64,000 nucleotides of DNA, taken from a virus. The position numbers and the translations under genes were made by a program. Under the pieces are notes generated by a model. That model was given only the letters and a program-made list of their open reading frames with translations. It searched no databases and was not told the DNA's origin. The DNA is taken from IMG/VR virus record IMGVR_UViG_3300046170_000505; one strand, written 5' to 3'. Shown here piece by piece: positions 11,819-17,800 of the stretch. Numbering within the stretch: position 1 is the first letter of the stretch; the number at the start of each line of letters is the position of its first letter.

Positions 11819-14800
11819 ATGGCAGTAAGAGCAAATGTTGATCTAAAAGTAAACATGGCTTCAGTAAAACGAAGCATGGATCGCGCTGCTAGAGAAGTAA
11901 ACAAAACCGTACAAAATGTTTCAGGGAAAGATATATCTTTTAATGTAAACGGAAAAAGCTTTACTCAGCCGCTTGGTAGAATTACATCGTCTGCAAATGA
12001 ATTCACCAAATCTTTAGAAGCTTCTAATGCTCGTGTTATAGCGTTTGGAGCTTCAGTTGGAATAATTAATGCAATAACAGATTCTTTTAAATTTTTAATT
12101 GCAGAAACTGTTAGGTTTGAAAAAACCCTTCAAGATATTAACGTGGTTTTAAATTCCTCAAATGAGCAGATACAAAAGTTTGGACAAGGTTTATTTGATG
12201 TAGCGCAAAACACAGCTCAATCTTTCAATATTGCCGCTGACGCCGCTCTTGAATTTTCTCGTCAAGGTTTAAGCGTAGAAGAAGTTTTAAAAAGAACTAA
12301 CGATGCCCTCACATTGACTCGTATCACAAGCTTAGATGCGGCTGAAGCTGTTTCTGGATTAACTGCCGCAGTAAATGCTTTCGGGGAAGCAGGTTTAACT
12401 ACAACGGATATTATAGATAAACTAGCGGCTGTAGACGTAAAATTCGCTGTTAGCTCTGAAGATCTAATTAACGGTCTTGAGCGGGCTGGCGCTGTTGCTA
12501 TTGATGCTGGTGTTGACCTTGATAACTTAGTTGGAATTATAACTTCTTTGCAGCAAACAACTGCTCGTGGTGGTGCGGTTATTGGTAATGGACTTAAAAC
12601 TATTTTTACGAGAATCCAAAGGCCAGAATCCATCAGGCAGCTAGAAGATATGGGCGTTGCAGTTAGAACTCTAACTGGAGCAGTTCTTCCAGCTGACAAA
12701 GTCTTAAAGAATATAGCAAAAGGTTTTGAAGAACTATCCCAAAGTCAACAATCAAACATTGTTCAGTTTGCCGCTGGAATATTTCAAGCTAATATTTTTA
12801 GAGCCGCTCTTACTGACTTAGCAAAAACTCAAGGTATTCAACAGCAAGCTACTGAAATATCAGCTAACGCAGCTGGAGAGGCAGCTAGAAAAAATGAACT
12901 TTTAAATAAAAGTATATCCGCTATGGCTTCGCAAGCTGGTTCTGGATTAAAAGAACTAGTAGGAATAATGGGTGAATTGGCGATAAAGCCAGAGCTAGGC
13001 GAAGCAGTTGGAATATTTGGTAATGCTATAGAAGGCTTAAAAAATGCATTAGGAGGAGGAGAAGACGAAGGTAATGCGTTTGCAAAAGGTTTAGTTAGAG
13101 GTATTGGGAATGTTTTGACTGGTCCAGGAGTTATAGCTTTTGCGGCTATTTTTACAAAACTTTTATTTAATGTTTTTAAGTTCGCTTCTGGTTCGTTAAA
13201 AGATGTTTTAGGAATAGTAACTCAAAAAGAAAAAGTTAGGCAAATTGAAGAGTCTATAGTCAAAGTATTAGGCTCAAATGTTCAAGTAACTCAAGCTTTA
13301 AATCGACTTGAAGGAGACAGGATTGCTCAAGAGCAATACATACTGGGGATAATAGAAGCTCAAACAAATGCGCTTGCAAAACAACAACAACTCGCAAGCA
13401 AATTAGGCCCCGCTCTTTTAAAAAGAGGGATAACTCCAGATCTTAGTTACGATAATACCCCTGGTACGCTTGTTGATATCGATGGAGATGGGGTGATTTC
13501 AGGCGCTGGAGGTATTTTACCTCAAGAAAAAAATGCAGAAAGAAAAGGAGCCATAGAAGGAGGCTATAGCCCTGGAAGAGTAAACAAAATGAAAGTCCCT
13601 GGAATGGGTGATGTTATTTATAATACCGCCGAAAAAGTAAAGAATTTTGAGGGAATGAAACAGCCTGCTATTATGCCGCCACAAAGCAGTAGGGCTGGAA
13701 GAAACTATAAAGAAAAATTTTCAGAAAAACATGGTTTTGATCCTTATGCTAGTGGAGGACTTATTCCTAATTTTGTGCCCAGAAAAGGCTCTAATGTTGA
13801 TAAGGTTTACCAATTATTAAAAAATGCCTGGTTGTCTGAAGGGTACAGAATGACAAACAAAGAACTTACAGATGCCACTGGCCTTCCAGGAGCCCCTGAT
13901 AATCCATATAAAAAAGCCAATTCAAGCTTTAATAGAGATTTTGGAGCCAAATTAAACAAAGCTGGATACACTGTTAATACAAGACCACGCACAGAATACT
14001 ACCAATACTTACCAACGAATAAAGAAAAAATTGCAAAATTTATACAACGGGAGCAAGACCCCGCAAAAAAAGGAATTGCGACAATAACCGATGACGAATT
14101 AATGGATAAATTTTTAAAACAAAAAATTTTAAAATCCGCATCTGGACATCATTTTCAAGCCGCAATTGAAGCTGGAGGAAGATCTAAAGTATCTTTTGCA
14201 AATTCAGTTACATCTTACAGAAATCAATTCGTCAACGAAGACAAGCTTGTAGCGCCACCAATATATTTAAAAGATGATTCAACTTACGTTGGCCCACCTA
14301 ATTCTAGTCCATGGGCAAATGTATCATTAGAATCTAAGGGAAAGTCAAAAGTAAATGCTACTGGCAAAGAAATTGATAGTGTTTTCAATGGTATAAAAAA
14401 CGGAGCTCCTCAAAGTTTTTTAGGTTTAGATAAAAGGTTTGATATAAACCCACTAACTAAAAAAGAACTAGCCGACTTCAAAAAACAAAATTTTAGCGCA
14501 AATGTTGATCATTATGGATTTGCTAAAATGCAAGGAAACCCACCAAAACCCGTTTTTTTAAGTTATAATACTTTAGCAAATGCGCCTTATAGCTTGAACG
14601 CGAATGGATTTGAACATGCAATTTCAGATTTTAAACGTCGTAAACGAGGACTTGCGGGATCTCCTCTTGATTTTATAGATGTCCCTGGAGAAGCTAAATT
14701 CGGACCAACAGCATATAAAAACACCCTTGACGAGCATTTAACAGGAAAATTTTTAAGGCACTTAATTGGCACTGACTCAATATCATGGCCACCACGAGCA

Positions 14801-17800
14801 GGGTATGGAAGCTTAGGGCGTCTAGAATATTTTCATACAGAAAGTTTTGGCGCTCCTACTATGAAACATATAGAGCAGCGAAACAAACAAGCCCACAATA
14901 TAAAAGCAAATTTAGGCCTAATCCCTAATTTTGCAGACTACAGAACTCGTGAACAAAAAATAACAGATTATTTAAATGATCCAGCTAATGACAAAGTAAA
15001 GTTTAAAAGGCCTAAAATGCCAGCAAATATAACTCCTACGCAAATAAGTATGGCGATGAATGTCCCAGTAGGAGGTAATGTTACTAAAGAATATTCTGAC
15101 AATGAAATTAAAAAAGCAATATCAGAAACAATACAGAAAAGAAAAGATTTACAACTGGAGGGTTTTGAAAATTTAAAAAACGTAGACATAGATTCTGTTC
15201 TTAAAAAATACAAAGAATCAACAAAAGATGGGGATTTCTATGGCGATAAAGATTTAAGCTATTCTTCTGGTCTCGTTCCTAACTTCGTTGATAAAGTTCA
15301 AAACGGTGCAATCTACTACAGTAAGCCTCACAATAAGATCGTGAGGGTAACTCGCGTAGATAATGACAAGAAAATCGCAAGGATCAAACATCACGACATG
15401 GAAAAATACAAAGATGAGGAAGTATTTTTCAAAGATCTTGAAGCAGTTTCAGCTGAACAGGCAAAAGAATACTTCCAGAAAAAGAGTTCTGGCCTTGTTC
15501 CTAACTTTGCACAACAAGCAGGCAATACTTTGTTGATGGAGCCAAGTAAATTTTTTACTTATGCCAACTCAAGCGATGTGGCTAAAGCTCTAGGGAAAGG
15601 AGTAAATTACAGAGAAATTCAAGATAAGATGGACTCACAGGAACCTGTATCGATAAAAGCTAGCCTGCTGGATATCATAACTTCGTCTGACAAAAATAAA
15701 ACAAAACCCACTGGAAAAGAAGCATTACATGGCACCTTTAACTCTTTAGCGTCAAAAGGGATTTCTTATATAGAAAGAGATTTTATTTTCAGGCAACTTA
15801 AAAGAAGAGGAGCTAGACAAAAAAAAGGAGAATCAGATCCAGATTTTAACGAAAGAAAAGTCACTGCTCAATTAAATGCGGAACAAGATATAAGAGAAAC
15901 AGCTGGATCAACTTACACAAAATATTTATCTACATATAACCCTGAAACAAAAAAGGGCGACCCTTCTTATCCCATCGATCATATAGCAGAAGGTCTTGAG
16001 TTTTCTTCAGGAGAAACTAAAAGCGGAGAATTTATCGCCGCAAATTTGATCTCTAAAAGTTTGCGAATGGCTTCTGATAGAGAATTAACCTCATGGTTAG
16101 AATCTCAAGGCGTTAAAGACAAAGGTCTTGATGAAAAAAACTTAAAAAGAGCTCAAAACCTAGCCTCTCAACTAGGAATAAAAGGAACTAAAAAAGATGA
16201 ATCTGAAGAACCCACTTTTGATCAAATAGACGCTGACGCTTGGGGAATGAATAAGGGGTTGGTGCCTAATTTTGCCGATCTAAGCAAATCAGAGAGGCTC
16301 AAGATGATGAAAAGTACATTAAGTTTCCAGGACGAATACGAAGATTTAGCAAAAATGGGCAGTCCGCTAGCAAAGTGGGCCTTAAAGACCGTCAAGGACA
16401 AAGAATTCAAGATGATTGGCAATGGAATGGAATCGTGGGCCATAGGAAACGAGGAGGTTGTTTATAAGCTGCCAAGGCCAATGATAGATAGCTTTAGTAA
16501 AACAGGCGATCTAGAACTAAAAAGATGGAGAAAGCAAATGAAAGTGATGGCTCAACCTTCTCTTCAGTATAAAGTGAGTCCAGAAAATAAAGCTTGGAAT
16601 CTTGTGCCGAATTCAAATATAGCAAAAAGAGCGGAAAGAATAAGGTCTCAACTTGATGAGCTTGGTATTAATTCACTGTTTTTACCAAAAACAGAGGTGT
16701 TAAAAGTAGCTGGGCAAGACGAGTTTATAACTTCCCAGGAAAGGGTTAAGGGTAGTACTTTTTTTAATCTTCAGAACGAAATTGTTAAAAACAAAAACAA
16801 TAAAACCGACTTTAATCTAGACGGTTATAAGATTGTCGAGCATTTAATGGAAAACATTGGCGAATCCACGATGATAACGGATGTACATTCTGGTAATTTT
16901 ATAGCTGAGGCAAGCAAGAAGAAACAACTCTTAAATACGGTTAATCAATTTGCCCCTGTCGGATCAAAAGAATCTAAGCCGTTGAGTAGATTGGGATTGA
17001 GAAGTTTGCCTAATGACAGTATGGCTGCGATTGATTTTTCTTCAGGCCTAATTCCGAACTTTGCTGATTTATACAAGCCATACATGAATAAAGGGGGAAA
17101 GGCTATAGGTATGGAAAATTATTTCTACAGTTCTAATAATCAGGAGGACGCACTAAATTACATAAAGTCCAACAAAAATTTGAATATAAAAACTGGAAGC
17201 TCTGAGCTCAGGAAGTTTAATTTTCCTCCGAGAGTTTGGGAAATGTTAACATCTAATAATCCTCAGGATATCGAACCTCAGATGAATGTACTGCCAATAG
17301 GAACCAGGACCCCTATTGGCAAGGGCGACCCTTATAGGGATACAAGTCTCGGAAAAGGGATGAGCGAGCAGGAAGATTTTTATGCCATAGCTTTAAAGAA
17401 TACTCTTGGGATAAGGCCTCCGTTCTTTGAAAAAACAGATTCCTGGAGAAACGGTGAGACTTATTCTACCTTAATGACTAACTCGTCGCAATTCAGGGAG
17501 ATGTATAATTTAAACAGGTTGGATGGGAAAAATGTTATTCCTAATTTTGTTAAATATGACAAATCGCGTGGAGGCTCAGGGGCATGGGGAGCTATACCTA
17601 ATAATCGAGAAGGAAAATATGGAGGTTTTATTCCAAACTATAAAAAACTATATCAAGCATATATCGGTGACGATAAAAACTATAGAGCCAACAGGACTAG
17701 TAGCGCTTGGTATTTTGATAGTCAAAAAGGAACAGATGGAATATTAGATGATTGGCGAGGCGTGGTATCTAGCGGAGCCGTGAGCAAAGGCATTGGACAT

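What the first reader, a model, noticed from the sequence alone, without database searches (positions are those of the whole stretch)
13775..16255. TMP modules: two related PD-(D/E)xK nuclease-like domains
Module 1 (13775-14914) ends GFEHAI...PLDF..VPGEAKFG...HLTGKFLR. Module 4 (15509-16255) has FNERKV...PIDH...SGETKSG...NLISKSLR. Both share E...P-h-D...G-E-x-K-x-G...L-x-x-K-x-L-R, a restriction-endonuclease-fold signature. Module 1 also begins with an HTH-like segment (KVYQLLK...MTNKELTDATGL). Inference: injected nucleases, which would imply that the phage DNA is protected or that the targets are specific.
Basis: partly seen in the sequence, partly recalled or inferred. Interest (0 to 1): 0.7.

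Follow-up and report, generated by a model that had tools for sequence, protein, structure and literature searches.

The report
Nuclease-like cassettes inside a giant tape measure
Two cassettes inside the 5,051-residue tail tape measure protein of an uncultured marine phage carry the conserved catalytic signature of restriction-endonuclease-type nucleases, so the phage probably brings its own nucleic-acid-cutting enzymes into the cell through its tail, although only one cassette has fold support and no activity has been shown.

Summary
Window 11819-26974 (+) is one 5,051-aa TP901/lambda-type tape measure protein (TMP). Thirteen G-L-[IV]-P-N-F linkers divide it into 12 cassettes.

**Cassette 4 (aa 1231-1481)**
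- It belongs to a family found in about 29 of 30 related giant TMPs, though that set was retrieved with cassettes 1-4 as query.
- E1345, D1387, E1399 and K1401 are invariant in 34 sequences.
- A confident AlphaFold model (pLDDT 89) places them in the canonical helix-strand-strand-strand-helix order.

**Cassette 1 (aa 653-1034)**
- It has a probable winged-helix N-terminus.
- Its C-terminal family conserves E932, D951, E/D958, K960, K977 and R980.
- Its model is poor, so there is no fold evidence.

**Relatedness.** The two cores align profile-to-profile at E 1.7e-4 (49.9% probability). This is 8.8 SD above shuffles and the best of 21 cassette families.

**Caveats.** Neither cassette matches any Pfam, NCBIfam, PHROG or PDB sequence. 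Injection and nuclease activity are inferred. A related TMP carries a genuine SNase cassette.

Other readers noted the cassette array on this same genome.

**Verdict:** new, divergent PD-(D/E)xK-like families in an unusual vehicle. Likely for cassette 4, about even for cassette 1.

The parts
11819..26974 (+). Single 5,051-aa ORF: the tail tape measure protein that carries the cassette array
   Evidence: ORF list. PF10145 PhageMin_Tail at aa 117-316, E 2e-25. 17 PHROG tape-measure families match. Lambda-like tip genes lie downstream: gpM-like PF05939 and gpJ-like PF13550.
13775..14920 (+). Cassette 1 (aa 653-1034), bounded by G-L-I-P-N-F linkers at aa 649 and 1035
   Evidence: Linker positions. 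Full-length homologs are L001, P0037 and P0004, plus a cassette in L004.
13775..13981 (+). Cassette 1 N-terminal ~69 aa: probable winged helix-turn-helix
14582..14779 (+). Cassette 1 C-terminal core (M1C) with E932, P949-L-D951-F, E958-A-K960, K977-x-x-R980
   Evidence: Invariant columns E280, I283, P297, L298, D299, F300, A307, K308, K325, R328 and G332 in cassette numbering; E306 is replaced by D in one member. The family occurs as a separate cassette in 12 or more proteins. The model is not usable here (pLDDT below 50).
15509..16261 (+). Cassette 4 (aa 1231-1481), bounded by G-L-V-P-N-F linkers at aa 1227 and 1482
   Evidence: Linkers. Homologs found in 25 giant TMPs, usually as the first cassette after the TMP N-domain. 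AF2 model has pLDDT 89.4 and pTM 0.86.
15509..15808 (+). Cassette 4 N-terminal alpha/beta subdomain (~100 aa), fold not identified
   Evidence: Conserved as a family (M4N), with G84, R90 and F92 conserved. Barely covered by the fold-search hits.
15821..16069 (+). Cassette 4 PD-(D/E)xK-like core: E1345 (nt 15851), D1387 (15977), E1399 (16013), K1401 (16019), N1409, K1413, S1414, R1416
   Evidence: E115, D157, E169, K171, N179, K183, S184 and S189 are invariant in 33-34 of 34 sequences. Model elements: helix 110-130, strands about 140-144, 158-159 and 167-170, helix 177-185. Restriction-endonuclease-fold hits all fall on model residues ~98-250.
16070..16180 (+). Cassette 4 helix-extension-helix-like segment (S-D-x-x-L-x-x-W), a possible DNA-binding element
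   Evidence: S189, D190 and L193 conserved. Helices 192-199 and 207-222. Only a sub-threshold Pfam Ish1 (HeH) hit, E 0.044, in 2 of 11 members.

Best explanation
Cassettes 1 and 4 are two distantly related, previously undescribed families of minimal restriction-endonuclease-fold (PD-(D/E)xK) domains built into the tape measure protein of a lambda-like marine siphophage. In cassette 4, an ~80-residue core has a helix carrying E1345, three short strands carrying D1387 and E1399-x-K1401, and a helix carrying N1409, K1413 and R1416. This would form a two-carboxylate-plus-lysine metal site. An unidentified alpha/beta subdomain precedes the core, and a helix-extension-helix-like DNA-binding element follows it. 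Cassette 1 couples a winged helix to a C-terminal core with the same residue order and a tighter hairpin (D951, seven residues, E958-x-K960). Tape measure proteins leave the tail ahead of the DNA at infection, so these domains would reach the host envelope or cytoplasm with the first DNA. There they would cut or process nucleic acid, either host DNA or RNA, or a step of genome entry. Shown here: motif conservation, the relatedness of the two cores, the secondary-structure order in cassette 4, and the TMP context. Inferred: the complete fold, metal-dependent catalysis, release at the linkers, delivery, and the target.
For: - **TMP identity and context:**
- **Linker-bounded cassettes in a whole family of 2,300-5,000-aa TMPs:**
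- **Cassette 4 conservation:** E115, D157, E169 and K171 are invariant across 34 sequences down to ~26% identity. This includes a divergent variant that replaces cassette 4 in L001, P0002 and P0039.
- **Cassette 4 model:** pLDDT 89.4, with alpha1-beta1-beta2-beta3-alpha2. D157 lies at the edge of strand 158-159 and E169 lies in strand 167-170.
- **Cassette 1 core:** E, P-L-D-F, (E/D)-A-K and K-x-L-R are invariant in 8-13 sequences.
- **Relatedness of the two cores:** E 1.7e-4, z about 8.8 against shuffles, best of 21 cassette families.
- **Winged helix at the start of cassette 1:**
- **Precedent within the family:** a relative TMP (P0044) carries a Pfam-significant SNase cassette at aa 2146-2243 (27.1 bits against a cut-off of 21). 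Nuclease cargo therefore occurs in this family.
Against: - A fourth core strand was not identified.
- The cassette 1 core is unmodelled. It has only ~13 variable residues between the E-helix and the D-strand, so a canonical beta1 may be missing.
- No sequence match to any Pfam, NCBIfam, PHROG or PDB family. The ESM Atlas gave no usable lead.
- Cassette 4 is nearly constant in position and presence. That fits a structural or DNA-entry role as well as an effector role.
- Folded 250-380-aa domains should not fit a tail-tube lumen. How they are stored is unknown.
Confidence: 0.55

Rival explanations
1. The domains have the nuclease-like fold but do not degrade nucleic acid. Instead they hold or guide the leading end of the phage genome, or shield it from host exonucleases, as the tape measure leaves the tail. 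The winged helix and HeH-like elements would supply DNA binding.
For: Cassette 4 or its variant is present in about 29 of 30 large TMPs. It is usually the first cassette next to the TMP N-domain, which makes it a constant part rather than swappable cargo. DNA-binding-type elements flank both cores.
Against: A purely binding domain has no need to keep the whole E/D/ExK set invariant down to ~26% identity. The set of relatives was collected with these cassettes as query, so the apparent constancy is partly ascertainment.
Confidence: 0.22
2. The resemblance to PD-(D/E)xK is coincidental. The conserved acidic and basic residues serve another purpose, such as a different hydrolase chemistry, metal-dependent folding, contacts with the tail tube or an assembly chaperone, or membrane insertion. 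The two cassettes share only a short convergent motif.
Against: A roughly 50-fold over-representation of restriction-endonuclease-fold chains among the hits is hard to obtain by chance. So is the exact placement of the four residues on the canonical elements. The shuffle control gave 0 of 200 at or above the real score.
Confidence: 0.18
3. Cassette 4 is a true nuclease-fold domain, but cassette 1 is unrelated. Its C-terminal motif belongs to a different fold, and the profile similarity reflects a short beta-hairpin-plus-helix pattern only.
For: The M4C profile finds no M1C region even below threshold, while the reverse search gives scores of 2.6 bits or less. The spacing between the E-helix and the D-strand is 19 residues in cassette 1 against 42 in cassette 4. 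The AF2 model for cassette 1 failed.
Against: Order and identity of five conserved positions agree. M4C is by far the best partner of M1C among 21 families. A seven-residue D-to-E spacing is known in genuine members such as MutH (from memory, not tested here).
Confidence: 0.3

Closest known systems
Minimal PD-(D/E)xK nucleases: VRR-NUC (PF08774, the FAN1 nuclease domain) and archaeal Holliday junction resolvase Hjc
   Same: The core is ~80-100 residues. A glutamate sits on the first helix, an aspartate at the start of the second strand, and E-x-K on the third strand, followed by a helix with conserved polar residues. The D-to-E spacing of 12 in cassette 4 resembles Hjc (spacing recalled from memory). 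FAN1, VRR_NUC and Hjc chains are among the structural hits.
Polyvalent proteins of phages and conjugative elements (Iyer et al. 2017, PMC5512222)
   Same: One giant polypeptide strings together several enzymatic and DNA-binding domains, including nucleases, wHTH and Rho-N/SAP HeH. It is thought to be delivered with the invading DNA and separated after delivery.
   Different: That survey does not mention tape measure proteins (0 occurrences). Its hallmark zincin-like peptidase, ArdC-N and ParB-like DNase domains were not found here. Here the domains are separated by a repeated G-L-[IV]-P-N-F linker and sit between the two halves of a length-determining tail protein.
Tape-measure-related effectors of Streptomyces contractile injection systems (Sle1 and relatives; PMC13277306, PMC11126660)
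   Same: A tape-measure-type scaffold carries an exchangeable functional domain, is packed inside a tail-like tube, and is ejected.
   Different: Those are single-effector proteins of bacterial contractile nanomachines, not phage TMPs. They carry one C-terminal functional domain rather than an internal array, and no nuclease-fold domain is reported in the abstract.
Tape measure proteins with embedded enzymatic motifs (mycobacteriophage TM4 Rpf-like motif, T5 pb2 peptidase domain); recalled from memory, not checked here
   Same: There is precedent that a TMP can carry a catalytic domain that acts during genome entry.
   Different: Those domains attack peptidoglycan, not nucleic acid. They occur singly and are not linker-bounded cassettes.
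SNase (PF00565) cassette in the related TMP P0044
   Same: A recognised nuclease domain occupies a cassette position in the same TMP family.
   Different: It has a different fold (OB-fold thermonuclease) and is absent from the window's own TMP.

Membership tests
PD-(D/E)xK (restriction endonuclease-like) superfamily: cassette 4 core | Conserved E ... (P)D ... (D/E)xK residues, invariant among homologs | tested here: met
   E115, D157, E169 and K171 are invariant in 33-34 of 34 sequences, including the divergent variant in P0002 and P0039. P155 is present in 30 of 34.
PD-(D/E)xK (restriction endonuclease-like) superfamily: cassette 4 core | alpha-beta-beta-beta-alpha(-beta) core, with E on alpha1, D at the start of beta2 and ExK on beta3 | tested here: inconclusive
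   The AF2 model (pLDDT 89.4) gives helix 110-130, strands ~140-144, 158-159 and 167-170, and helix 177-185, with the residues on the expected elements.
PD-(D/E)xK (restriction endonuclease-like) superfamily: cassette 4 core | Significant structural similarity to solved members | tested here: inconclusive
PD-(D/E)xK (restriction endonuclease-like) superfamily: cassette 4 core | Divalent-metal-dependent phosphodiester cleavage | not testable with these tools
   Needs a biochemical assay.
PD-(D/E)xK (restriction endonuclease-like) superfamily: cassette 1 core | Conserved E ... (P)D ... (D/E)xK residues, invariant among homologs | tested here: met
   E280, P297, D299 and K308 are invariant. E306 is E in all members but one, which has D (P0006). 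Based on 8-13 sequences.
PD-(D/E)xK (restriction endonuclease-like) superfamily: cassette 1 core | Core fold with the residues on alpha1, beta2 and beta3 | tested here: inconclusive
   AF2 pLDDT is below 50 over residues 268-316. Only the flanking helices 279-285 and 319-332 are predicted. The link to cassette 4 is hhalign E 1.7e-4, probability 49.9%.
Named Pfam/NCBIfam nuclease families (VRR_NUC, Hjc, Tox-REase, NERD and others) | Score above the family's curated cut-off | tested here: not met
   No nuclease family matches at E up to 10 for any of 11 cassette 4 members, or at E up to 1 for cassette 1 and its relatives. The domains are not filed under any named family.
Winged helix-turn-helix (GntR/BrxR-like): cassette 1 N-terminus | Three-helix bundle with recognition helix and wing, structurally similar to solved wHTH domains | tested here: inconclusive
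Phage tail tape measure protein (PF10145 / TP901 type) | PhageMin_Tail domain, long coiled-coil C-terminal part, and position upstream of the tail-tip genes | tested here: met
   PF10145 at 90 bits against a cut-off of 33. PHROG TMP families match. gpM-, gpL- and gpJ-like genes lie downstream.
Polyvalent proteins (Iyer et al. 2017) | Several unrelated effector or DNA-binding domains in one virion-delivered polypeptide, typically with a zincin-like processing peptidase | tested here: inconclusive
   The multi-cassette layout is present. No peptidase domain was detected in the TMP. Delivery and processing were not tested.

The most novel reading that the evidence does not exclude
A clade of marine lambda-like siphophages uses its tape measure protein as a delivery string for enzymes. 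Two new restriction-endonuclease-fold families ride on it. One of them (cassette 4) is a near-universal first cassette that acts as a nuclease at the moment of genome entry, for example by cutting host DNA or defence nucleic acids ahead of the phage genome. This would be the first case of a nuclease injected through a non-contractile tail as part of the tape measure.
Probability: 0.3. Interest if true: 0.8.

Novelty: new variant of a known kind. Interest (0 to 1): 0.6.

Why it matters
Tape measure proteins are usually treated as rulers and channel formers. If they can carry active nucleases, and other enzymes in neighbouring cassettes, into the cell ahead of the DNA, that adds a route for virion-delivered host takeover or counter-defence in siphophages. 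It would also define two new, compact PD-(D/E)xK families that current databases miss. It raises a physical problem too: how folded or unfolded domains are stored in a tail-tube lumen. The prediction can be tested directly with two recombinant fragments and three point mutants.

Tried and rejected
- **Sequence libraries.** Pfam, PHROGs and NCBIfam scans of both cassettes and of family members gave no relevant family. PDB sequence searches found only spurious hits, both with single sequences and with a profile.
- **Cultured phages.** tblastn against 50,697 phage records with the cassette region found nothing. The TMP N-domain finds only ~26%-identical Lactococcus and Bacillus phage TMPs.
- **ESM Atlas.** Best score 0.81 for cassette 4 and no usable hit for cassette 1.
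- **Contaminated result, rejected.** A first hhalign result of 95% probability between M1C and a cassette cluster was discarded. Single-linkage clustering had pulled M1C-bearing cassettes into the cassette 4 cluster. MAFFT had made a similar error when aligning the M1C query against whole TMPs, placing it on the M4 core of several proteins. Those rows were left out of the cassette 1 folding alignment.
- **Cassette 1 structure prediction.** An isolated-core model of either cassette could not be made.
- **Reference family for comparison.** An attempt to obtain genuine VRR_NUC sequences through the genome search returned no loci.
- **Further homolog searches.** These added little. An alignment-driven locus search failed because no stretch was conserved enough.
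- **DNA modification.** No DNA-modification gene was recognised in the window. The many glycosyltransferases look like surface-glycan genes, and this was not followed further.
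Full report
**What is there**

The finding lies inside one open reading frame, window 11819-26974 (+), of 5,051 residues.
- Its first ~640 residues are a TP901-type tape measure domain: Pfam PF10145 at 90 bits against a cut-off of 33, and 17 PHROG tape-measure families.
- Its last ~2,200 residues are coiled-coil-like.
- The genes downstream are lambda-type tail-tip genes: gpM-like PF05939, a phrog_18 minor tail protein and gpJ-like PF13550.
- Between residues 649 and 2843 there are thirteen copies of a G-[LF]-[IV]-P-N-F motif, which cut the protein into twelve cassettes.
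- Every quoted string is present once at the stated place.

**Origin and relatives**

No whole genome is held for this window.
- The same protein (100% identical over the searched region, aa 653-1481; annotated length 5,036 aa) is on a 142-kb JGI metagenome contig.
- Relatives of 2,300-5,000 residues come from marine metagenome contigs of up to 222 kb.
- All carry the same kind of linker-bounded cassettes.
- The closest relative in IMG/VR (L001, ~90% identical in shared parts) has cassettes 1-3, a duplicated cassette 3, and a different cassette in place of cassette 4.
- Cultured phages share only the TMP N-domain, at ~26% identity. The cassette region has no match in 50,697 phage records.

**Cassette 4**

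It defines a family found in 25 of 30 large TMPs collected here, nearly always as the first cassette after the TMP N-domain.
- The cassette that replaces it in L001, P0002, P0039 and L003 is a divergent version of the same core. It has F-A-E-S, V-V-D-A-I, T-E-V-K-S-G and N-I-F-E-K-S-I-R-R. A cassette 4-type core is therefore present in about 29 of 30.
- This set was retrieved with cassettes 1-4 as the query, so the frequency is biased upward.

In a 34-sequence alignment going down to ~26% identity, the invariant positions are E115, D157, E169, K171, N179, K183, S184 and S189 in cassette numbering. In the ORF these are E1345, D1387, E1399, K1401, N1409, K1413, S1414 and S1419. Near-invariant positions are P155, G162, R186, D190, L193, R90 and G84.

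AlphaFold2 on a 36-sequence alignment gives a confident model, with mean pLDDT 89.4 and pTM 0.86. In that model:

| Element | Residues | Conserved residue carried |
|---|---|---|
| Helix (alpha1) | 110-130 | E115 |
| Short strands (beta1) | ~140-144 | (none) |
| Strand (beta2) | 158-159 | D157 at its edge |
| Strand (beta3) | 167-170 | E169, with K171 just after |
| Helix (alpha2) | 177-185 | N179, K183 |

This is the alpha1-beta1-beta2-beta3-alpha2 order of the restriction-endonuclease fold, with each residue on its canonical element. A fourth core strand was not evident. Coordinates could not be inspected, so spatial clustering of the four residues is not shown.

**Fold searches for cassette 4**

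About 17 of those 34 are restriction-endonuclease-fold proteins:
- three FAN1 entries
- two VRR_NUC entries
- R.BspD6I and N.BspD6I
- NgoMIV, FokI and BsaWI
- Hjc
- a CdiA-CT DNase
- TT1808 and AF1548
- 3ijm
- the R2 restriction-like endonuclease
- two tRNA-splicing endonuclease subunits, counted at fold level

All of them align to model residues ~98-250. MspJI appears in the second-look search.

A sub-threshold Pfam Ish1 (helix-extension-helix) hit covers the conserved S-D-x-x-L-x-x-W segment after the core (E 0.044, 2 of 11 members). No Pfam, NCBIfam, PHROG or PDB sequence family matches.

**Cassette 1**

Full-length homologs are few: L001, P0037, P0004 and a cassette in L004.
- The C-terminal ~90 residues (M1C) form a family that occurs as a separate cassette in at least a dozen proteins. 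These include TMPs that also have cassette 4 (P0010, P0017, P0021, P0038, P0043, L004, L005).
- Invariant positions are E280, I283, P297-L-D299-F, A307-K308, K325, R328 and G332. In the ORF these include E932, D951, K960, K977 and R980.
- E306 (E958) is E in all members but one, where it is D. That substitution is what a (D/E)xK position allows.

The AlphaFold model is poor, with mean pLDDT 53.6 and below 50 over residues 268-316, so there is no fold evidence for this core.
- Only ~13 variable residues separate the E-helix from the D-strand. A canonical beta1 may be missing or supplied from elsewhere.

**Are the two cores related?**

| Test | Result |
|---|---|
| BLASTP of the two cassettes | E 0.05 |
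| jackhmmer | Keeps the families apart |
| hhalign, clean family alignments | Probability 49.9%, E 1.7e-4, 49 columns pairing PxD, ExK and K-x-L-R |
| hhalign, tool-built alignments | Probability 49.7%, E 1.7e-4, 48 columns pairing the same motifs |
| 200 column shuffles of the cassette 4 alignment | 11.1 +/- 2.1, maximum 17.3, against 29.8 for the real one |
| Reversed alignment | 12.8 |
| 20 other cassette families from the same proteins | Best E 0.008 |

An apparent 95% match was an artefact of a contaminated cluster and was discarded. I conclude that the two cores are probably, but not certainly, homologous.

**How it most likely works**

*Shown:* a tape measure protein carries two conserved domains with an intact E/D/ExK signature. 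One of them has the right secondary-structure order. DNA-binding-type elements sit next to both. A related TMP (P0044) carries a Pfam-significant SNase cassette, so nuclease cargo exists in this family.

*From established knowledge of siphophages (not tested here):* the tape measure leaves the tail first at infection and enters the envelope or cytoplasm.

*Inferred:* the cassettes are metal-dependent nucleases or nucleic-acid-processing enzymes that act in the host at the time of DNA entry, possibly after release at the disordered linkers. The C-terminal residues of the cassette 4 model next to the linker have pLDDT 29.

The target, and how the phage's own DNA would be spared, are unknown. The window holds several glycosyltransferases and a GDP-mannose dehydratase, but no recognised DNA-modification gene.

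The main rival is a non-degradative role in holding or protecting the genome end. The near-constant presence and position of cassette 4 favours that rival.

**Comparison with what is known**

- The nearest structural kin are minimal PD-(D/E)xK nucleases of VRR-NUC or Hjc size. Membership in any named family fails by sequence.
- The nearest concept is the polyvalent protein of phages and conjugative elements (PMC5512222). That survey does not mention tape measure proteins.
- Tape-measure-related effectors are known in Streptomyces contractile injection systems (PMC13277306; PMC11126660). They carry a single C-terminal domain.

**Earlier notes of this scan**

Notes on the same genome describe an ADP-ribosyltransferase-like cassette and a kinase-like cassette in this TMP. 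I did not test them. They fit the picture of an enzyme array. Reports overlapping my stretch were withheld.

**Verdict**

- The nuclease-fold reading is likely for cassette 4 (about 0.7) and about even for cassette 1.
- Activity and injection are untested.
- These are new, divergent members or variants of a known superfamily in an unusual carrier.

Noticed in passing
window 57652-58854 (+): A 400-aa ORF with a papain-family cysteine protease domain (PF00112, E 1e-15), followed by an acidic repetitive tail. It is a candidate for processing at the G-L-[IV]-P-N-F linkers, or an auxiliary enzyme.
   Followed up: no
window 42669-46917 (-), 48343-48777 (-), 50602-51141 (+), 53651-54556 (+), 62189-63999 (+): A cluster of glycosyltransferases (GT9, GT1, GT2, GT25) and a GDP-mannose 4,6-dehydratase, next to ribonucleotide reductase, NUDIX and SSB genes. 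It looks like surface-glycan metabolism, but a role in DNA glycosylation was not excluded.
   Followed up: no
L001 11945-12784 (+); P0002 aa 1302-1581: In the ~90% identical relative, cassette 4 is replaced by a divergent version that keeps the same E, D, ExK and N-x-x-x-K-S-x-R residues. Cassette 3 is duplicated in tandem. This is evidence for cassette exchange and duplication at the linkers.
   Followed up: partly
P0044 aa 2146-2243 (related TMP, not in the window): A staphylococcal-nuclease (SNase, PF00565) domain above Pfam's cut-off sits in a cassette of a related 4,189-aa TMP. A weak CI-repressor HTH hit lies at aa 994-1028.
   Followed up: partly
window 3319-10638 (+) and 10635-11762 (+): A 2,439-aa ORF and the 375-aa ORF directly upstream of the TMP both carry divergent InlB B-repeat (Flg_new_2) domains and have no PHROG match. 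They are unusually large proteins for the position where tail tube and chaperone genes are expected.
   Followed up: no
window 16070-16180 (+): The conserved S-D-x-x-L-x-x-W segment after the cassette 4 core gives a sub-threshold Ish1 (helix-extension-helix) hit. This suggests a SAP/Rho-N-like DNA-binding element.
   Followed up: partly
window 13757-20344 (+), all linkers: The residues flanking each linker are also conserved (for example small residues, then G-L-V-P-N-F-A). The residues at the C-terminal end of the cassette 4 model, next to the linker, are disordered (pLDDT 29). This fits exposed processing or recombination sites.
   Followed up: no
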